A DNA stretch of 64,000 nt from an uncultured Chloroflexia bacterium (GTDB lineage Bacteria > Chloroflexota > Limnocylindria > Limnocylindrales > CSP1-4), in contig CAWFXA010000001.1 in the NCBI GenBank assembly GCA_963819655.1, forward strand, positions 160,001 to 224,000, given 5' to 3'. Position 1 is the first letter of the stretch. Every line of letters begins with the position of its first letter. Below are positions 24,944-31,745 of this stretch, one piece after another. Under the pieces are notes generated by a model, which was not told the DNA's origin, searched no databases, and saw only the letters and a program-made list of their open reading frames with translations. The translations under genes and the position numbers were made by a program.

Positions 24944-25501
24944 GTGGAGCGAGACCTCGTGGAGCGAGCACGGAAGGGCGATCATGACGCCTTTGCGCTG
25001 CTGGCAGGCGCCACGATCGGTCGGCTGGACGCCGCGGCTCGGCTCATCCTGCGGGATCCGTACCGTGCCGAGGACGCCGTCCAGGAGACGCTCGTCCGCT
25101 GCTGGCGGGACCTGCCCACCCTGCGCGATCCCGATCGCTTCGATGCCTGGCTTCACCGGATCTTTCTAAACGCCTGCCGCGATCAGCTCCGGGTCGCCAA
25201 GCGCAGGAGCATCGAGGTCGAGCTTCCCGAGATCCATCCTCTCTCGGTGCCTGACTCCCAATCGGCCACGGCCGACCGGGACCTCATCGAGCGTGGCGTC
25301 CGTCACCTCGACGCCGACCAGCGCACCGTGATCGTCCTTCACTACTACCTTGGCCTGCCGCTGCCCGATGCCGCCTCAGCGATGGGGATCCCGCTCGGGA
25401 CCGCGAAGTCACGACTCCATCGGGCGACCCAGGCGCTCCGAGCCGCTCTCGACTCGGATGCCCGGGCCGCCCGGCCGATGGCGGAGGGAGGGTCCAGATG
25501 A
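24944..25501 (+). CDS. ECF RNA polymerase sigma factor
   Basis: AEDAVQETL, RFDAWLHRI..NAC.D, region 4 GIPLGTAKSRLHRA. Confidence 0.93.
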   Translation: MERDLVERARKGDHDAFALLAGATIGRLDAAARLILRDPYRAEDAVQETLVRCWRDLPTLRDPDRFDAWLHRIFLNACRDQLRVAKRRSIEVELPEIHPLSVPDSQSATADRDLIERGVRHLDADQRTVIVLHYYLGLPLPDAASAMGIPLGTAKSRLHRATQALRAALDSDARAARPMAEGGSR

Positions 25502-26859
25502 CGCATCGCGACGATCTCGACCGCCTCCTCTCCGTGTGGCTCGACGATCCGTACACGCCGCCCGCTCCGCACTACCTCGGACGCGTTCTGGAGCGGACCC
25601 GGCACACCCGGCAGCGAGCGGCCTGGGCCAGCCTCGAAAGGTGGATTCCCATGGCTGACAAAGTCCTCCAACCGACGACGGCACGGCCTCTGCGGATGGC
25701 CTGGCTCCTGATCCTCGCGTTGATCGTGCTGGCCGTCGCTGCCGTTGTTGCGGTCGTGGGGTCTCGACTCCTCGCGCCGACTCCTGTCATACCCCAAGGC
25801 GGCTCTGCCGTCTTCGTGTACGGCACGATCGTCGGTGACGCCGGCGGCGACATCTATCTCGCGCGAGCGGACGGCACTGATGTACGCCGGCTCACAAGCG
25901 GGCCCGGGCTCGAATCCACCCCAACGTGGTCGCCCGATGGCACGCGCATCGCCTACCGCGCCTGGGAGGGCGGGACCGATTCCATCGTCGTCATGGACGG
26001 TGGCGGCGGAAACTCGACGACACTGGCCACGACCCCTGCGTCCGCGTCGTACTGCGCGCGAGGCGACCTTACATGGTCGCCGGACGGCACGAGTCTCGTC
26101 TTCCAGACCAGCCCGGTGTGCGACATGACCTTTGAGCTTTTCATCGTGCCGACCGACGGGTCGTCAGCGGCGAAGAGGCTGCTGGTTCCGGGTCTGGAGA
26201 GCCGTTCAGCCGACTGGTCGCCCGACGGGAAGCGCATCGCCTTCCTGGGGAGGGATGCGGCCGGTAGCGTCGGCCACTACGTTGTCGATGCAGGCGATGC
26301 CCTGGGAGGCGGGCTTCAGGCACGTCGGATCCTGGCCGCGCGCGGCGTTGATTTTCCTAACGCCGCGGGAGCCTGGTGGTCGCCCGACGGGACCGAGCTC
26401 GCGCTCGCCTCCGACACGGGGGACATCGTCGTGGTCAAACCCGATGGCTCGGAGCCGCGGGTCGTTGCCGAAACAGCCTTCAATCCCGCGTGGTCACCCG
26501 ACGGGCGACGGCTTGCCTTCCACCGTACCGTCGACCCCTCGGAGTACTTCGAGGGTGTGGCATGTACCGCTCGCACCTGGGTCGTCGACGCAGACGGCAC
26601 CAACGAACGTCGGCTCGATCCGTTGGTGTTGGGTTGTGGAGGGGCGCCGGTGTGGTCGCCCGACGGGACGCGACTCGCGAGTCTTCTGATCGTGCCGACA
26701 CCGGATGACCCGAATCTCGGGTTGCACTACGGGGTGGTCACCGTCGACGGTAGCGATCCACAGGTAGCCCTTCAGGATGGTGGTGCCGGATCCTGGCAGC
26801 CCGTCGTCGCGCCGATCCCACCGGCGCCCTCGTCTGGGGCGGCCGCCCCGAGCGAGTGA
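25498..26859 (+). CDS. Putative anti-sigma factor with TM helix and TolB-like (PD40) beta-propeller
   Basis: Coupled to ECF gene; short cytoplasmic N-terminus, TM (WLLILALIVLAVAAVV), six WSPDG repeats. Confidence 0.8.
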   Translation: MTHRDDLDRLLSVWLDDPYTPPAPHYLGRVLERTRHTRQRAAWASLERWIPMADKVLQPTTARPLRMAWLLILALIVLAVAAVVAVVGSRLLAPTPVIPQGGSAVFVYGTIVGDAGGDIYLARADGTDVRRLTSGPGLESTPTWSPDGTRIAYRAWEGGTDSIVVMDGGGGNSTTLATTPASASYCARGDLTWSPDGTSLVFQTSPVCDMTFELFIVPTDGSSAAKRLLVPGLESRSADWSPDGKRIAFLGRDAAGSVGHYVVDAGDALGGGLQARRILAARGVDFPNAAGAWWSPDGTELALASDTGDIVVVKPDGSEPRVVAETAFNPAWSPDGRRLAFHRTVDPSEYFEGVACTARTWVVDADGTNERRLDPLVLGCGGAPVWSPDGTRLASLLIVPTPDDPNLGLHYGVVTVDGSDPQVALQDGGAGSWQPVVAPIPPAPSSGAAAPSE

Positions 26860-26902: not shown

Positions 26903-27895
26903 TCAGTCGATCGTGAAGTGGTCCGGGTCCTGGTAGCGCCCTGTCCGCTGGAACTCGATCTGCATCAGCACGTCGTTGAGCAACGACGACGCCCCGAAGC
27001 GGAACCAGTCCGGGCTCATCCAGCGCGGACCCAGCGTCTCGTACAGGATCACCAGGTACTGGATCGCTTCCTTGGCGGTCCGGATGCCGCCGGCCGGCTT
27101 GATCCCGACCTGACGCCCCGTCGCCCGCTCGAAGTCGCGGACCGCCTCGAGCATGACCAGCGTCACCGGCATCGTGGCGGCCGGCGTGACCTTGCCGGTC
27201 GATGTCTTGATGAAGTCGGCACCGGCCGCCATGGCCAGGATCGATGCTCGCCGGACGTTGTCATAGGTCTCCAGCTCGCCGGTCTCGAGGATGACCTTGA
27301 GGTGCGCGTCACCCGAGGCCTCCTTGACCTCGACGATCTCCTCGAACACGCCGGCGTAGTCGCCGGCCAGGAACGCTCCGCGGTCGATGACCATATCGAT
27401 CTCGTCGGCGCCCGCTTCGACCGCGGCCCGCGTCTCGGCCAGCTTGATGTCGCGGAAGGTCTGGCCGCTGGGGAACCCGGTCGCGACACTGGCGACCTTC
27501 ACGCCGCTCCCCTTGAGCGCGTCCTTGGCCTCGGCGACCAAGGCCGGATAGACGCAGATCGCCGCGACCGACGGGATCGTCGGGTCGCCGGGCTTCGGAT
27601 GCATGCCCTTGACGCACAGCGCCCGCACCTTGCCGGGGGTGTCCTTCCCCTCGAGCGTCGTGAGGTCCATCATCCGGATCGCCAGGTCGAGCGCCCACAG
27701 CTTCGACGCCTTCTTGATCGACCGTCGTTTGAGCGCGTCGACGCGCGCCTCGACGCCCACCTGGTCGACGGTGCTGACGCGTCCGAGCAGGCTGCCCAGC
27801 GGATCGCCGATCGAGCGAGAGCGCCCATCCCACGCACGGATGAGCTCGTTGGCGCGCTGGCGTGCGAGCGTCTCGGGTCGCTTCGTGGCGGTCAT
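26903..27895 (-). CDS. deoC: Deoxyribose-phosphate aldolase
   Basis: MDLTTLEG, GADEIDMV, LKVILETGEL, FIKTSTGK, KPAGGIR, RFGASSLL. Confidence 0.96.
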   Translation of the reverse strand: MTATKRPETLARQRANELIRAWDGRSRSIGDPLGSLLGRVSTVDQVGVEARVDALKRRSIKKASKLWALDLAIRMMDLTTLEGKDTPGKVRALCVKGMHPKPGDPTIPSVAAICVYPALVAEAKDALKGSGVKVASVATGFPSGQTFRDIKLAETRAAVEAGADEIDMVIDRGAFLAGDYAGVFEEIVEVKEASGDAHLKVILETGELETYDNVRRASILAMAAGADFIKTSTGKVTPAATMPVTLVMLEAVRDFERATGRQVGIKPAGGIRTAKEAIQYLVILYETLGPRWMSPDWFRFGASSLLNDVLMQIEFQRTGRYQDPDHFTID

Positions 27896-28008
27896 GGGAC
27901 GGAGAGGATACCGCTAACCGCGCGGGGCACCAGGGGGGCCGCGGCCGCGGCCCGGCCGAGCGCGCGCTGCCGCTCGCTGGTCGCTCGGGTCTACCATCGA
28001 CCCGGACG

Positions 28009-28755
28009 ATGACCGACCAGCTCTCGCTCCCGCTCGACGCCACCGCGGATCGGCTGCCCGATCTGCCCGAGCTCCGCCCGATGCTGGCCCGGCCGCTCTC
28101 GGACGCCTTCGATTCGGATCAGCACCTGTTCGAGCCGTGGTGGGGAGGGACCCGCGCGCTGATCTCGATCGGACCGGGCGATCGGCCGGGCGAAGGGGAC
28201 GTGCGGGTCGTCGATGCTGACGACATCGACCGGACCGCGTCACTCCCCGAGCTGGCCGGCACGGCCGTCCGTGTCGCGGCGCGGTCGGCGATCCTCGACG
28301 GCGAGCTTGTCGTCGTCGATGCCCACGGACGGGCAGATACGGCCGCACTCGAGCAGCGCCTCGACGGCAAGGCCGGTCGGCCTGTTGCGTTCCTCGCGTT
28401 CGACCTCCTTCACCTGGACGGGCGGTCGCTGCTCGGACAGCCGCTCGTCCGACGACGCGAGGCGCTGAAGCGGATCCTTCGGCCGGGCGACGAAGTAGTT
28501 GCCGTCCCGGCGATCGCGACGGAGGGGCGTGCGCTGTTCGACGCGATCCTGGCCCAGGGCCTCGCCGGCATGATGGCCCGCCAGCGGCAGGGGCCTTACC
28601 TCCCCGGTCTGCGGAGTCGGTTGTGGCGGTTCATCCCCGCGGTCGCCGGATCGGTCCCTGCGTCGGACCTCGCGGATGCGCCGGAGGAGCCAACCTCGGC
28701 GACCGCGCCGGTCCTCGCCATGCTCAGTCGTCTACCCCTCGAAGAGGAGGCGTGA
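28009..28755 (+). CDS. Degenerate ATP-dependent DNA ligase adenylation-domain protein
   Basis: PMLA, ILDGELVV and FLAFDLL retained; motif I reads FEPWWGG instead of EPKxDG; no OB domain. Confidence 0.8.
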   Translation: MTDQLSLPLDATADRLPDLPELRPMLARPLSDAFDSDQHLFEPWWGGTRALISIGPGDRPGEGDVRVVDADDIDRTASLPELAGTAVRVAARSAILDGELVVVDAHGRADTAALEQRLDGKAGRPVAFLAFDLLHLDGRSLLGQPLVRRREALKRILRPGDEVVAVPAIATEGRALFDAILAQGLAGMMARQRQGPYLPGLRSRLWRFIPAVAGSVPASDLADAPEEPTSATAPVLAMLSRLPLEEEA

Positions 28756-28781: not shown

Positions 28782-30101
28782 TCAGCCCGCGCGACGGGCA
28801 GCGGCGATGAACGCCCGGATCCCCGGCCGCTGTCCGTACAGCAGCACGCCGGTGGCGTAGATCCGCACGGTGGCAACCGCGACCAGGGCGATCGTGGCCA
28901 GCAGGATGCCGACCGACAGCGCGACCTCCCACGGCTGGACGTCGCTGACCATGAGCCGCGAGAGCATCGCGAAGGGGCTGAGTGGCGGCACGAACGACAC
29001 GATGCGGCCCATCAGCCCGCCACCGCCCAGCAGCACGACCAGTGCCGAGAGGTAGCCTGCCATCGCGACCAGGCTGAGCGGGAGCGACAGCGTCTGGAGG
29101 TCGTCGGGCCGGCTCACAAACGAGCCGACCGCCGCATAGATCAGCGCAAACAGGACGAAGCCGAGCAGGAAGAACAGGCCGTATGCGGCGAGGAGGCCGA
29201 TCGTGAGGCCCCCGGTGGGCAGGCCGACTCCACCATCCCCGAGCACCGCCCGGGCGATCTCGTCCTGGAACGCGAGCACGAGCACGGCAGGCACCGCGAT
29301 CGCGACGTACTGGGTCAGGCCGGCCCCGCCGATGCCGAGGACCTTGCCGACCAGCAGCTGGCGTGGCGACGCCGCGCTGATCATCAGCTCCATGACCCGG
29401 CTGCTCTTCTCGGTCGCGACGCCCGTGGCGACCCACATCCCGTAGATCAGGATCGTGATGAACATCAGGATGATGAACACCGTGCCGAGGAAGCCGCGGC
29501 TGGCGACGACGACGGCATCGACCGCACGCCCGTCCTGGGTCGGCGCGATCAACGACTCTTGTTCGAACTTCGGCGTTCGGAACGTACCCAGGTCAGAGCC
29601 CTGCGGCAGCGAGCTCGTCCAATCGATGATGCCGACCGACAGCGCGACGAACCCCGCGAGCTGGGCCTGGACGCTATCCGCGGGCCCGTTGGTTCGGTAG
29701 GTGACCCCGAGCTGCCCGTCGGGCAGCCGGGCGACCTCGATGATCGCGTCGATCCGGCCGGCCGCGAGCTCGTGGATCGCGAACTCGCGATCGGTCTCGC
29801 GCAGGATCTCGAACGGTGGGGTCCAGTCTTCGGCGGCGACGCCGGGTGGCGGGATGTTCATGATGCCGTTCGCGGTCGCCATGGTGCCCGTCGCCAGCTG
29901 GTCGTCGTCGGCCACGATCGCGATCCGGTCGACCGTCGAACGGTCGAGGTAGCGCAGGCCGATCGGGGTGATCGCGACGCCCACCGCGAGCAACATCAGG
30001 ATCACGGTCGAGATGCGATAGAGCCTGCTGCGGACCCGGTCGACGTATTCGCGCCGGGCGACGATCAGGGCATTGGGCAGCAGCGGGTCGTGGCGCGTCA
30101 T
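28782..30101 (-). CDS. ABC-2 permease (NatB-like)
   Basis: ARREY..RVRSR start, VATEKSSRVMEL.IS, GKVLG. Confidence 0.9.
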   Translation of the reverse strand: MTRHDPLLPNALIVARREYVDRVRSRLYRISTVILMLLAVGVAITPIGLRYLDRSTVDRIAIVADDDQLATGTMATANGIMNIPPPGVAAEDWTPPFEILRETDREFAIHELAAGRIDAIIEVARLPDGQLGVTYRTNGPADSVQAQLAGFVALSVGIIDWTSSLPQGSDLGTFRTPKFEQESLIAPTQDGRAVDAVVVASRGFLGTVFIILMFITILIYGMWVATGVATEKSSRVMELMISAASPRQLLVGKVLGIGGAGLTQYVAIAVPAVLVLAFQDEIARAVLGDGGVGLPTGGLTIGLLAAYGLFFLLGFVLFALIYAAVGSFVSRPDDLQTLSLPLSLVAMAGYLSALVVLLGGGGLMGRIVSFVPPLSPFAMLSRLMVSDVQPWEVALSVGILLATIALVAVATVRIYATGVLLYGQRPGIRAFIAAARRAG

Positions 30102-31045
30102 CAGGCCGCGTCCTCGGCAAGGGCGGGCTCGTCGTCATCGTCCGGCGGTCGACCGACCAGCTCGACGAAGATCGCCTCGAGGGACGGCTCGGCGACCTCG
30201 TAATGGCTGACGAGCGCGCCGCGTTCCAGGGCGGCGGCCAGAACGTCCCGGGGTTCGGTCCCAGGCCGCAGCTCGAGCTCGGCGAAGCCGGCGCCGGGCC
30301 TGACCGCCATGACCCCATCGATCGATGTCAGCCAGGTCGGCAGGATCTCGCCCTCCACGCCAAGCCGCACGGTCCGCGCCCGCGATCGGCGTTTCAGGTC
30401 CGCCAGCGTGCCACCTGCCACGAGCCGGCCGTGGTCGATGATCGCTAGCGACTCGCACAGGGCTTCGGCCGCCTCCATCTGGTGGGTCGAGAAGACGATG
30501 GTGCGACCCTCGTCCCGCAGCTCGACGAAGGCGTCGCGCAGGAGCGAGAGGTTGACCGGGTCCAGCCCTGTGAACGGCTCGTCCATGAGCAGGACGTCGG
30601 GTCCGTGCAGGATCGCGGCGATGAACTGGACCTTCTGCTGGTTGCCCTTGCTGAGCTCCTCGGCGCGGCGATGGGCGAGATCCGGGATGCGGAAGCGCTC
30701 GAGCCACACGTGCGCGTTCTTGCGTGCCTGGTCGGCCGACTCGCCGTACAGCCTGGCGAAATAGACGAGCTGGTCGATGACGCTCAGGCGCGGATACAGC
30801 CCGCGCTCCTCCGGCAGGTAGCCGAAGGTCCGTCTCGGCAAGTCCGAGGCGTGCGTGCCCTGCCAGCGGACCTCGCCCTCATCGGCATGGATGATCCCGA
30901 GGCAGATGCGCATGGTCGTCGTCTTGCCGGCACCATTGGCGCCGAGAAAACCGAAGATCCGGCCGCGGGGCACGCTGAACGACAATGCGTCGAGCGCGAC
31001 GGTCTGGCCGAACCGCTTCGTGACGCGGTCGATGTCAAGGGTCAT
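30101..31045 (-). CDS. ABC transporter ATP-binding protein (NatA-like)
   Basis: GANGAGKTT, GYLPEERGLY, LSKGNQQK, MDEPFTGLDP; TATCCT 8 nt upstream of ATG. Confidence 0.93.
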   Translation of the reverse strand: MTLDIDRVTKRFGQTVALDALSFSVPRGRIFGFLGANGAGKTTTMRICLGIIHADEGEVRWQGTHASDLPRRTFGYLPEERGLYPRLSVIDQLVYFARLYGESADQARKNAHVWLERFRIPDLAHRRAEELSKGNQQKVQFIAAILHGPDVLLMDEPFTGLDPVNLSLLRDAFVELRDEGRTIVFSTHQMEAAEALCESLAIIDHGRLVAGGTLADLKRRSRARTVRLGVEGEILPTWLTSIDGVMAVRPGAGFAELELRPGTEPRDVLAAALERGALVSHYEVAEPSLEAIFVELVGRPPDDDDEPALAEDAA

Positions 31046-31334
31046 CGCGCCGGAGGATAGTCCCCACGGGCACCCTTCGCCGCTGGGCCGATGGTCCCGG
31101 TCCGGGTCGGCCCCAAGCCCCCGGCGCATCGTGTCCGCACGAATGCGCCGAAATCGGCGCATCTCCGGTCGAGATCGACGACTTCGTGCACGAAACCCCC
31201 CGCATGGGTCGCCCGCGACCCTGCGGCACGCTCGGGACGCCCGCCCTTCGACGTGTGATGCAACGAAATCGGCGCATTCACGCGGGGAGATGCGACTCGG
31301 ACAGGGCCGTGACCCGTGGTGCGACAATCCACGC

Positions 31335-31745
31335 GTGACCCAGATGGCGACAGGCCCCGCGACGACTCCGACCCGCATCCACGCGGATCGGGCTGCCGGC
31401 ACGCTCGCGATCGACTGGGCCGACGGGCACGTCACCGTGTACGGCTTCGAGCCGTTGCGCTGGCTGTGCCCCTGCGCATACTGCCGCGGGGAGGCGGGCA
31501 TGCCCGGCTGGCTCGACAGCGCCCCTACCCTGACGCCGGAGCAGACGGCCCTCACGGACCTCCATCTCGTCGGCAACTACGCGGTCTCGCCGCATTGGGC
31601 CGACGGCCACAAGACGGGCTACTACCCGTTCCGGCTGCTACGCGATCGGTGCCCCTGCCCTGCGTGCACGAGCCGCCGCGAGCTCGAGGGCCAGGGCGCC
31701 ATGCCCACACCGGCACCCGCCGGCACACACGAGGAACACAGATGA
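31335..31745 (+). CDS. DUF971 / GBBH N-terminal-like Zn-binding protein
   Basis: IDWADGH..Y....LR..CPCAYC, VGNYAV...W.DGH.TG.Y....LR; extra C-terminal CPCPAC. Confidence 0.85.
   Translation: MTQMATGPATTPTRIHADRAAGTLAIDWADGHVTVYGFEPLRWLCPCAYCRGEAGMPGWLDSAPTLTPEQTALTDLHLVGNYAVSPHWADGHKTGYYPFRLLRDRCPCPACTSRRELEGQGAMPTPAPAGTHEEHR

What the first reader, a model, noticed from the sequence alone, without database searches (positions are those of the whole stretch)
28009..28755. Catalytically dead DNA-ligase domain carrying an Hda-type beta-clamp motif
Seen: a 248-aa LigD/LigC-like adenylation domain keeps its structural motifs (PMLA, ILDGELVV, FLAFDLL, Y.PG.RS..W). It has lost several catalytic positions: motif I KxDG is WWGG (Lys to Trp, codon 28138), motif IV EG...K is AG...R, and the motif V lysines read RFIP. 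There is no OB domain, yet the frame is intact with its own TACCAT -10. It starts MTDQLSLPL. Established: QLSLPL is the sliding-clamp-binding hexapeptide of E. coli Hda, and the motif I Lys is essential for adenylation. Inference: a ligase pseudo-enzyme recruited to the clamp as a scaffold, nucleotide sensor or nick binder (analogous to inactive ImuB). I know of no described system like this.
Basis: partly seen in the sequence, partly recalled or inferred. Interest (0 to 1): 0.78.

Follow-up and report, generated by a model that had tools for sequence, protein, structure and literature searches.

The report
Dead DNA-ligase domain with docking tails
This gene encodes a well-conserved copy of the core of a bacterial DNA-break-repair ligase that can no longer join DNA but carries a sliding-clamp-type docking peptide at one end and a second docking peptide at the other, so it probably acts as a non-enzymatic helper of Ku-dependent DNA repair.

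Summary
Window 28009-28755(+) encodes a 248-aa protein that is only the nucleotidyltransferase domain of a LigD/LigC-type ligase. Motif I reads WWGG instead of KxDG, motifs IV and V are degenerate, and there is no OB domain.

It is not decay. 79 of 80 species-level orthologues are intact, dN/dS is about 0.07-0.11, and no lysine is conserved anywhere (0-3 per protein).

Both tails are predicted disordered, and each carries a conserved peptide:
- N-terminal M-x-D-Q-L-x-L-x-L, with Q4 and L5 in 80 of 80.
- C-terminal P-V-L-A-x-L-S-R-L-P-L.

QLSLPL is the Hda clamp motif. Residues 1-9 dock in the model into the own DnaN (ipSAE 0.65, best control 0.01). This pass may come from memory of solved complexes.

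New here, following a lead from an earlier scan note: the family descends from ligase-only genes that sit directly behind ku.
- In the sister family f3, 25 of 26 genomes keep ku followed by the dead ligase.
- Longer Lys-less relatives lie in Ku/LigD operons.
- The five Ku-less genomes inspected lack the protein.

Best reading: a non-catalytic repair adaptor. Whether its tails bind the clamp, Ku or both is untested. The scan has met this family on four other genomes.

The parts
27992..27997 (+). TACCAT, a -10-like promoter element 11 nt before the start codon (leaderless-type)
   Evidence: Conserved 6-11 nt upstream of the start in 78 of 79 orthologous loci. Genome-wide, 64 of 156 TACCAT sites precede a start codon by 5-12 nt with an ORF of at least 80 aa. 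The transcription start itself is not shown.
28009..28755 (+). CDS of the 248-aa Lys-less ligase-domain protein (pseudo-ligase), stop codon included
   Evidence: 79 of 80 species orthologues are intact. dN/dS is 0.113 overall.
28018..28035 (+). N-terminal docking peptide Q4-L-S-L-P-L9 (Hda-type clamp-binding hexapeptide)
   Evidence: Q4 and L5 80/80, L7 76/80, L9 79/80. pLDDT below 50. Residues 1-9 and 12 contact the DnaN pocket in the model. The motif is as in Hda.
28069..28638 (+). Nucleotidyltransferase (adenylation) domain, residues 21-210
   Evidence: PF01068 E 4.3e-18. AF2 pLDDT above 93 across 21-210. Foldseek best hits 6NHX and 1VS0, E about 1e-15.
28138..28155 (+). Degenerate motif I, W44-W-G-G-T-R49 in place of K-x-D-G-x-R
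   Evidence: Alignment to 1VS0. W45, G46, G47 and R49 are 80/80; position 44 is W/S/L.
28291..28314 (+). Motif III retained (ILDGELVV, residues 95-102)
   Evidence: D97 79/80, G98 80/80, E99 79/80. The motif label is recalled.
28390..28410 (+). Motif IIIa retained (FLAFDLL, residues 128-134)
   Evidence: F131 79/80, D132 80/80. The motif label is recalled.
28564..28581 (+). Degenerate motif IV, A186-G-M-M-A-R191 in place of E-G-x-x-x-K
   Evidence: A186 79/80, R191 80/80.
28624..28638 (+). Degenerate motif V, W206-R-F-I-P210 in place of W-L-K-V-K
   Evidence: Alignment with Lys-bearing relatives such as P0172. Column counts.
28639..28707 (+). Disordered linker, residues 211-233, standing where the OB domain lies in relatives
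   Evidence: pLDDT 36-53. Lengths vary among orthologues. dN/dS 0.127 for residues 211-230.
28708..28752 (+). C-terminal docking peptide P234-V-L-A-M-L-S-R-L-P-L244 plus an acidic end
   Evidence: P234, L242 and P243 80/80; R241 78/80; L244 L 68, F 12. dN/dS 0.085 for residues 231-248. The same type of tail is found on Ku-adjacent Lys-bearing and Lys-less relatives. The partner is unknown.

Best explanation
The gene encodes a selectively maintained, non-catalytic descendant of the stand-alone ligase that Chloroflexota encode directly behind ku.

What is left is the nucleotidyltransferase domain, without any of the lysines used for nucleotidyl transfer and without the OB domain. It is flanked by two disordered tails, each ending in a conserved docking peptide.

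It most likely works as an adaptor or regulator in Ku-dependent end joining. The N-terminal QLSLPL peptide anchors it in the peptide pocket of the beta sliding clamp. The C-terminal ...L-S-R-L-P-L peptide binds a second site, either Ku or the second pocket of the clamp dimer. The ligase-like core then occupies, or senses, a DNA end or nick without sealing it.

Shown: fold, loss of catalytic residues, purifying selection, conservation and disorder of both tails, descent from and co-occurrence with ku.

Supported only in silico: docking to the clamp.

Inferred: the partner of the C-tail, DNA binding, and the role in repair.
For: Fold and dead site. No conserved lysine; median 1 and range 0-3 per protein across 80 sequences.

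Selection: dN/dS 0.113 overall, 0.072 for the N-tail and 0.085 for the C-terminal segment (171 pairs of 19 sequences, NG86). 79 of 80 species orthologues are intact.

Tails: pLDDT below 50 for residues 1-3, 6-16 and 215-244. Motif columns are near-invariant.

Clamp:
- The motif is identical to Hda residues 6-11. An Hda peptide has a reported KD of 0.38 uM (passages read).
- Complex model: own DnaN dimer plus residues 1-30 (partner) plus residues 214-248. ipSAE 0.65, best of 3 controls 0.01.
- That mark was reached by 58 of 80 solved complexes and 2 of 110 mismatched pairs. Runs agree in at least 86% of contacts. Partner pLDDT is at least 49.
- Contacts are residues 1-9 and 12 with DnaN 155, 172, 174-177, 244-246, 249, 280, 282, 324, 348, 350 and 366-371.
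- Other repair proteins of the same genome end in canonical QLTIF or QLPLF.

Ku link:
- In 25 of 26 f3 genomes the Ku match lies directly upstream of the short Lys-less orthologue on the same strand.
- In 10 of 12 fetched loci of other families, ku abuts a Lys-less OB-bearing relative next to LigD.
- Ku is adjacent in 7 of 9 f22 loci (Lys kept) and 4 of 4 f17 loci (Lys to Ala).
- All 8 of 8 f69 loci have ku followed by a Lys-bearing ligase; its tail ends in LPF in 5 of them and in SLRL or SLF in the other 3.
- Ku was found in 74 of 81 genomes of the class. The 5 Ku-less genomes inspected have no tail-bearing pseudo-ligase.
Against: In this genome the gene is not near ku. It lies on contig C1 and ku lies on C2. 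It stands alone between divergent and convergent neighbours. The Ku link therefore rests on relatives and on co-occurrence among kin, which are not independent.

The clamp pass may come from the model's memory of solved Hda and peptide-clamp complexes. It used my own alignments and a four-chain design unlike the calibration. The partner's fold is uncertain (pLDDT about 50).

Longer Ku-adjacent relatives carry N-terminal peptides without Gln (SLPLSLP, TLPIALP, TLIRVED). This fits a Ku-directed or other motif as well as a clamp motif.

The C-tail was not scored. No DNA-binding evidence was obtained.

The quick tree has weak support at the deep forks (23 of 54 inner branches open).
Confidence: 0.6

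Rival explanations
1. Both tails are Ku-docking peptides, inherited from the POL-less ligase encoded behind ku. The resemblance of the N-tail to a clamp motif would be incidental. The protein would then be a pure end-joining factor: either a decoy that competes with the active ligase for Ku, or a scaffold that helps hold ends.
For: Tail-bearing relatives, with or without Lys, sit directly downstream of ku. They lack the POL domain that, by recalled literature, links LigD to Ku. The C-tail type is shared by all of these groups. Many N-tails lack Gln. The five Ku-less genomes inspected lack the protein.
Against: Q4 and L5 are invariant in 80 of 80 sequences, and the hexapeptide equals a measured high-affinity clamp motif. 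The model places it in the DnaN pocket with controls at 0.01. No Ku-peptide site is known in bacterial Ku, which lacks the vWA domain (passage).
Confidence: 0.25
2. A clamp-bound factor unrelated to end joining. Examples would be a nick sensor or a competitor at the replication fork. The Ku neighbourhood would be only its evolutionary origin.
For: In this lineage the gene has left the ku locus. It has its own promoter-like element and no operon partner. It has lost the OB domain.
Against: After relocation it still co-occurs with Ku. All 19 f1 genomes that carry the relocated form (G000 and 18 others) have Ku. The 2 f1 genomes without Ku (G187, G245) lack it.
Confidence: 0.1
3. It is still an enzyme or a nucleotide sensor that uses the remaining pocket (motifs III and IIIa, R49) without a lysyl-AMP intermediate.
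For: D97-G-E99, F131-D132 and R49 are retained in 79-80 of 80 sequences.
Against: No conserved Lys exists anywhere, and some orthologues have none. The motif I Asp, the motif IV Glu and Lys, and both motif V Lys are replaced. There is no OB domain.
Confidence: 0.04
4. A recently inactivated ligase gene on its way to loss.
For: None beyond the dead motifs. One of 80 orthologues (L146) has two frame shifts.
Against: dN/dS is 0.05-0.11, including the tails. Orthologues down to about 32% identity across the class keep length, tails and the same substitutions.
Confidence: 0.01

Closest known systems
Ligase (LIG) domain of bacterial LigD and stand-alone LigC-type ATP-dependent ligases (M. tuberculosis LigD ligase domain, PDB 1VS0, 6NHX)
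   Same: Same nucleotidyltransferase fold (Foldseek E about 1e-15, rmsd 2.2-2.5 A). 31-32% identity. Motifs III and IIIa and the Y-x-P-G-x-R-S-x-x-W segment are retained. Relatives are encoded beside ku.
   Different: No catalytic Lys, no motif I Asp, degenerate motifs IV and V, and no OB domain. It scores far below every NCBIfam cut-off. It adds two terminal docking peptides that canonical LigC-like proteins lack.
[quoted passage not shown]
   Same: Identical hexapeptide in a disordered N-terminus a few residues from Met1.
   Different: Unrelated domain: AAA+ in Hda, ligase nucleotidyltransferase here. Hda acts on DnaA. Binding is not measured here.
ImuB, the catalytically inactive Y-family polymerase that binds the beta clamp in the ImuA'-ImuB-DnaE2 mutasome (abstracts listed)
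   Same: The same logic: a dead member of a DNA-enzyme family kept as a clamp-tethered adaptor.
   Different: Different fold and pathway. This is an analogy only.
Eukaryotic non-catalytic NHEJ factors that dock on Ku through short terminal peptides (XLF, PAXX, APLF). This comparison is recalled and was not checked by any search.
   Same: A non-enzymatic end-joining accessory with terminal short linear motifs, genomically tied to Ku.
   Different: No sequence or fold relation. Bacterial Ku lacks the vWA domain that binds such peptides (passage). Docking on Ku is untested here.

Membership tests
ATP-dependent DNA ligase, LigD-LIG/LigC type (PF01068 + PF04679; TIGR02779) | Nucleotidyltransferase (adenylation) fold | tested here: met
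   PF01068 E 4.3e-18. AF2 core pLDDT above 93. Foldseek hits to 6NHX and 1VS0 at E about 1e-15.
ATP-dependent DNA ligase, LigD-LIG/LigC type (PF01068 + PF04679; TIGR02779) | Motif I KxDGxR with the AMP-accepting lysine | tested here: not met
   WWGGTR aligns to KWDGyR of 1VS0. 0 of 80 orthologues have Lys there and no Lys column is conserved.
ATP-dependent DNA ligase, LigD-LIG/LigC type (PF01068 + PF04679; TIGR02779) | Motif IV (EGxxxK) and motif V (two lysines) | tested here: not met
   AGMMAR and WRFIP stand against EGVVAK and WLKVK of Lys-bearing relatives.
ATP-dependent DNA ligase, LigD-LIG/LigC type (PF01068 + PF04679; TIGR02779) | C-terminal OB domain (PF04679) | tested here: not met
   No PF04679 hit. 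Residues 211-248 are disordered. Relatives P0172, P0176 and P0220 do have it.
ATP-dependent DNA ligase, LigD-LIG/LigC type (PF01068 + PF04679; TIGR02779) | Curated NCBIfam score cut-off | tested here: not met
   Best is TIGR02779 at 106.1 bits against 227.75. All 12 listed families are below cut-off.
ATP-dependent DNA ligase, LigD-LIG/LigC type (PF01068 + PF04679; TIGR02779) | Self-adenylylation and nick sealing | not testable with these tools
   Needs a biochemical assay.
Beta-clamp-binding proteins (clamp-binding motif, QL[SD]LF or QLxLxL) | Consensus motif present | tested here: met
   Q4-L-S-L-P-L9. The same hexapeptide is the Hda motif.
Beta-clamp-binding proteins (clamp-binding motif, QL[SD]LF or QLxLxL) | Motif in a disordered terminus or loop and conserved among orthologues | tested here: met
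   pLDDT below 50. Q4 and L5 80/80, L7 76/80, L9 79/80. 13 of 14 f3 orthologues have QLxLx[LVI].
Beta-clamp-binding proteins (clamp-binding motif, QL[SD]LF or QLxLxL) | Peptide occupies the clamp's peptide-binding pocket | tested here: inconclusive
   The model supports it: ipSAE 0.65 against a best control of 0.01, a mark reached by 58 of 80 solved and 2 of 110 mismatched pairs. The pass may be from memory of solved complexes. The match to the canonical pocket residues is recalled from E. coli numbering.
Beta-clamp-binding proteins (clamp-binding motif, QL[SD]LF or QLxLxL) | Measured binding to DnaN | not testable with these tools
   Needs ITC, SPR or pull-down.
Bacterial NHEJ gene set (Ku with LigD or a ligase) | Gene adjacent to ku | tested here: not met
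   The own gene is on contig C1 and ku is on C2. 0 of 11 relocated f1 orthologous loci have ku within 1.5 kb. Adjacency is met by 25 of 26 f3 orthologues and by longer relatives.
Bacterial NHEJ gene set (Ku with LigD or a ligase) | Co-occurrence with ku across genomes | tested here: met
   Ku is in 74 of 81 class genomes. The 5 Ku-less genomes inspected have only Lys-bearing ligases or a different Lys-less paralogue. Two further Ku-less genomes (G324, G333) were not inspected. Kin are not independent.
Bacterial NHEJ gene set (Ku with LigD or a ligase) | Physical or genetic interaction with Ku or LigD | not tested
Needs experiment or further modelling.

The most novel reading that the evidence does not exclude
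The protein is a third, non-catalytic component of bacterial end joining. It would bridge two DNA-encircling rings. Its N-tail would plug into the beta sliding clamp. Its C-tail, or its core, would hold Ku. Double-strand-break repair would thereby be coupled to clamps left on DNA, for example at broken forks. Alternatively, it would keep Ku-bound ends unsealed until the active ligase takes over.
Probability: 0.2. Interest if true: 0.85.

Novelty: new variant of a known kind. Interest (0 to 1): 0.68.

Why it matters
Bacterial end joining is described as a two-part machine of Ku and LigD (passages). Here a whole class of soil and sediment Chloroflexota, and relatives in other families of the phylum, keep under strong selection a ligase copy that cannot ligate. 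That copy carries two docking peptides and is encoded behind ku or co-occurs with it.

If it docks on the clamp, on Ku or on both, three things follow:
- It adds a regulatory or scaffolding layer to a pathway thought to have none.
- It gives a bacterial counterpart to peptide-docked accessory factors of eukaryotic end joining.
- It gives a second example, after ImuB, of a dead DNA enzyme kept as a clamp adaptor.

There is also a practical point. Some sources label these proteins 'bifunctional non-homologous end joining protein LigD' or 'ATP-dependent DNA ligase'. For a protein with no catalytic lysine, that label is wrong.

Tried and rejected
- Operon partner in the window: none. The gene is flanked by divergent deoC (in most relatives an S9-peptidase-like gene lies between) and by a convergent ABC-2 permease. 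This synteny is shared by close kin only.
- Defence system: no PADLOC hit.
- Other N-terminal QLxLxL proteins in the genome: a crude scan gave mostly internal false starts and was not informative.
- The clamp motif of the own DinB and ImuB-like genes could not be recognised by eye.
- The search for related loci with the diverse alignment A5 failed because it had no conserved stretch. It was repeated with A1.
- Expression: two RNA-library runs of one study hold contigs on 27969-28131 (1 mismatch) and 28014-28280 (3 mismatches). RNA libraries can hold DNA and contigs show no starts. This is only a weak hint of transcription and says nothing about a leaderless start.
- The C-terminal fragment rode along in the complex job but is not scored, so nothing can be said about it.
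- Order of events (gain of tails, then loss of Lys, then loss of OB): the quick tree of 57 rows puts the window in a starred 14-row clade that also holds the OB-bearing Lys-less P0163. Deeper forks are weak and no clade test was run, so the order is suggested, not shown.
- Literature searches found no paper on a Lys-less ligase paralogue with clamp or Ku docking peptides. Supplements were not seen.
Full report
**The observation.**
Window 28009-28755(+) is an intact ORF of 248 codons starting MTDQLSLPL. Pfam finds only the adenylation domain of ATP-dependent DNA ligases (PF01068, E 4.3e-18, residues 24-206). It finds no OB domain. NCBIfam places it nearest the LigD ligase domain (TIGR02779, 106 bits), far under the cut-off of 227.75. 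All 12 listed families are below their cut-offs.

The best solved relatives are the M. tuberculosis LigD ligase domain entries 6NHX, 6NHZ and 1VS0 (E about 3e-17 to 6e-17). In that alignment FEgKWDGyR of 1VS0 lies over FEPWWGGTR. The AMP-accepting Lys is therefore W44 (codon 28138) and the motif I Asp is G46.
- Motif IV reads A186-G-M-M-A-R191.
- Motif V reads W206-R-F-I-P210, against EGVVAK and WLKVK in Lys-bearing relatives.
- Motifs III (ILDGELVV) and IIIa (FLAFDLL), R49 and the Y-x-P-G-x-R-S-x-x-W segment remain.

The motif names are recalled from the ligase literature.

**Structure.**
An AlphaFold2 model built on a 59-row alignment gives pLDDT above 93 for residues 21-210. It gives pLDDT below 50 for residues 1-3, 6-16 and 215-244. 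Foldseek returns 6NHX and 1VS0 at E about 1e-15. The protein is thus a ligase nucleotidyltransferase core with two floppy tails.

**Not decay.**
The word-indexed search gave 2591 proteins at E up to 1e-3 among 8000 scored candidates. The best 120 are 78-94% identical. Nearly all are 246-257 aa long; the range is 224-286. Where a source names them they are 'LigD', 'ATP-dependent DNA ligase' or 'hypothetical protein, Candidatus Limnocylindrales'.

A scan of one genome per species found 172 relatives. The best 80 loci are MAGs labelled Limnocylindrales, Limnocylindria, Chloroflexota or 'uncultured Chloroflexia'. A few carry labels of other groups. They are 66-97% identical.
- 79 of 80 are intact. 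L146 has two frame shifts just after the N-terminal peptide.
- Over 80 sequences (the window plus 79 loci) W45, G46, G47 and R49 are invariant. Position 44 is W 72, S 7, L 1.
- No column holds a conserved Lys. The proteins have 0-3 lysines, median 1.
- Pairwise dN/dS (19 sequences, 171 pairs, NG86) is 0.113 overall, 0.072 for residues 1-20, 0.115 for the core, 0.127 for the linker and 0.085 for residues 231-248. It is 0.066 against the closest locus.

**Two conserved tails.**
The N-terminus is M-x-D-Q-L-x-L-x-L-(D/E), with Q4 and L5 80/80, L7 76/80 and L9 79/80. The C-terminus is P-V-L-A-x-(L/I)-S-R-L-P-(L/F) followed by acidic residues, with P234, L242 and P243 80/80.

Among the 150 best cluster representatives (11014 at E up to 1e-3) I could judge 71 that show motif I with at least 36 residues upstream.
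- 37 were non-Lys with QLxLxL.
- 18 were non-Lys without it. Several of these have LELPLD-, SLPLSLP- or DLPLDLP-like variants or broken N-termini.
- 2 were Lys-bearing with it.
- 14 were Lys-bearing without it.

Of the other 79, 42 gave no motif I by my pattern. A further 37 had less than 36 residues upstream; 28 of those carry Lys. Canonical LigC-like proteins lack both tails.

**The start and promoter.**
TACCAT at 27992-27997 is 11 nt before the ATG. It is found 6-11 nt upstream of the start in 78 of 79 loci. In the whole genome, 64 of 156 TACCAT sites precede a start codon by 5-12 nt with an ORF of at least 80 aa. That total is a third of what base composition predicts (about 461). It also supports a leaderless-type start, which puts QLSLPL at residues 4-9. 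The transcription start itself is not shown.

**Clamp.**
QLSLPL is the clamp-binding motif of E. coli Hda (residues 6-11). An Hda peptide containing it has a reported KD of 0.38 uM. A Hda-clamp structure (5X06) exists. I read passages of PMC5397184 and PMC11139829.

The own dnaN lies beside dnaA. I folded a DnaN dimer (29-row alignment) with residues 1-30 as the partner and residues 214-248 riding along.
- ipSAE was 0.65, 0.65 and 0.64. The best of 3 controls was 0.01.
- That mark was reached by 58 of 80 solved complexes and 2 of 110 mismatched pairs.
- Runs agree in at least 86% of contacts. Partner pLDDT is at least 49.
- Residues 1-9 and 12 touch DnaN 155, 172, 174-177, 244-246, 249, 280, 282, 324, 348, 350 and 366-371. 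By my recollection of E. coli numbering, this is the canonical peptide pocket.

The model supports binding but does not show it. Like complexes are solved, so the pass may be from memory. My alignments and four-chain design differ from the calibration.

Two other repair-type proteins of the genome end in canonical motifs. One looks like a family-4 uracil-DNA glycosylase and ends in QLTIF. The other looks like a radical-SAM protein and has QLPLF near its end. Both family labels are my reading of the sequence, not a tool result. The organism therefore seems to use ordinary clamp motifs.

**The Ku link.**
The own genome has ku next to LigD on contig C2, four true PF01068 ligases and a stand-alone Prim-Pol. 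The pseudo-ligase is on C1 and has no ku nearby.

Its relatives tell another story.
- In the class sample of 81 genomes, Ku was found in 74.
- In family f3, 25 of 26 genomes have the Ku match directly upstream, on the same strand, of a short Lys-less orthologue. The 26th pair, in G229, was not in the printed rows.
- 14 of 14 fetched loci (13 of f3, plus the f1 genome G088) read FE(P/A)WWPGxR. 13 of 14 have an N-terminal (D/E)QLxLx(L/V/I). All 14 have a C-terminal ...L-x-L-I-x-R-L-(P/G)-(L/F) tail.
- Three f1 genomes (G088, G253, G336) keep this ku-adjacent form.
- The other f1 genera, including the window's, carry the relocated WWGG form. 0 of 11 such loci have ku within 1.5 kb.
- In family f69, 8 of 8 loci show ku followed by a 357-436-codon (one 670) open frame with an intact Lys. 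The tail ends in ...V-L-Q-S-L-P-F in 5 of them.
- In f22, 7 of 9 loci (Lys kept, DQLQIELE start...LTRFPF end) lie just downstream of ku. In f17, 4 of 4 loci do (Lys to Ala, ELDLPF start; the end is QLPRLPL in 2, with QLPRLLI and HLPQLPI in the other two).
- In 10 of 12 loci fetched from families f7 and f26, ku abuts a Lys-less OB-bearing relative (FSVDWDG, FSVEWEG or FEVRWDG) beside LigD. One of these ten, L172, is from the unpublished genome G173.
- The 5 Ku-less genomes I inspected (G187, G245, G133, G269, G316) have only Lys-bearing ligases or a different Lys-less paralogue. Two further Ku-less genomes (G324, G333) were not inspected.

All 19 f1 genomes with the relocated form (G000 and 18 others) have Ku. 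Kin are not independent, so this is a pattern, not a statistic. One genome in the 81-genome tallies (G335) is unpublished.

**Descent.**
A quick maximum-likelihood tree of 57 nucleotidyltransferase domains was rooted on an own-genome ligase. It puts the window in a starred (99) 14-row clade of short proteins that also contains the OB-bearing Lys-less P0163. Beside it (support 89) lies a clade of f3 short forms plus ku-adjacent Lys-to-Asp OB-bearing forms. The Lys-bearing tail-bearing f22 group falls with other Lys-less groups. 23 of 54 inner branches are open and no clade test was run.

The tree suggests, but does not show, that the tails came first on a Ku-partnered ligase. Lys would then have been lost, perhaps more than once. 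The OB domain would have been lost later.

**How it most likely works.**
Shown:
- a folded ligase core that cannot form lysyl-AMP;
- two disordered, strongly conserved terminal peptides;
- descent from and co-occurrence with the ku-linked ligase gene.

Supported in silico only: the N-peptide in the clamp pocket.

Inferred: the protein is a non-enzymatic adaptor or regulator of Ku-dependent repair. It would dock through its tails on ring-shaped, DNA-bound partners and present a ligase-like DNA-end or nick-binding module without sealing.

Which ring each tail binds is open. The main rival (0.25) is that both tails serve Ku and the clamp likeness is incidental. Many ku-adjacent relatives have N-peptides without Gln.

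Residual enzymatic or nucleotide-sensing roles (0.04) are unlikely. Decay (0.01) is effectively excluded.

**Compared with the known.**
By fold it is a LigD-LIG/LigC relative, but it fails four defining features: the motif I Lys, motifs IV and V, the OB domain, and the family score. It should not be called a ligase.

It works like ImuB in logic, a dead enzyme kept as a clamp adaptor. It may also work like the peptide-docked scaffolds of eukaryotic end joining; that comparison is recalled. It is related to neither.

Bacterial end joining is presented as Ku plus LigD in the papers I read in passages. Searches for clamp motifs on ATP-dependent ligases, Lys-less ligases, pseudoenzyme ligases, and LigC with DnaN found no description of this protein. 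Supplements were closed.

Within this scan the family has been reported on four other genomes. My results agree with those notes. They add the class-wide ku adjacency counts, the co-loss with ku and the DnaN docking model for this copy.

**Verdict.**
It is a new variant of known kinds. Interest is 0.68.

Noticed in passing
window 27992-27999, and genome-wide (G000): TACCAT(CG) followed 5-12 nt later by a start codon recurs across the genome. 64 of 156 TACCAT sites fit this, and 22 of 58 TACCATCG sites do. TACCAT is three-fold under-represented overall. This looks like the -10 element of leaderless genes in this lineage.
   Followed up: partly
G000:C2:825868-826125 (L006:1474-2181, minus strand); not in the window: A second, unrelated-looking Lys-less ligase-like paralogue of 235 aa (motif I position reads VEPAWPGHR; PF01068 25.1 bits, just under cut-off). 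It has neither docking tail. Similar proteins occur in Ku-less genomes (L181, L182, L187).
   Followed up: partly
G000:C3:672741-673505 (minus strand) and G000:C2:1346484-1348055; not in the window: A protein that looks like a family-4 uracil-DNA glycosylase ends exactly in DQLTIF. A protein that looks like a radical-SAM (SplB-like) enzyme has EQLPLF near its end. Both look like canonical clamp-binding motifs. The family labels are my reading, not tool results.
   Followed up: no
L169-L173, L178-L180 (LigD C-termini): LigD proteins of several Chloroflexota families end in a shared G-D-L-F-x-x-x-L-x-x-(D/Q)-Q-(D/E)-L-P peptide, a possible docking motif of its own.
   Followed up: no
class sample: Many f3 and f69 genomes carry two or three Ku genes. 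Only one of them is followed by the ligase-like gene.
   Followed up: no
L146:5970-6120: One of 80 orthologues has two nearby frame shifts right after the N-terminal peptide. This is either an assembly error or a true pseudogene.
   Followed up: partly
window 25498-26859 (+), 26903-27895 (-), 28782-30101 (-), 30101-31576 (-): The neighbours look like a beta-propeller (TolB-like) protein with an N-terminal membrane anchor, deoxyribose-phosphate aldolase, an ABC-2 permease and its ATPase. These labels are my reading of the translations. In most relatives an S9-peptidase-like gene lies between deoC and the pseudo-ligase.
   Followed up: partly
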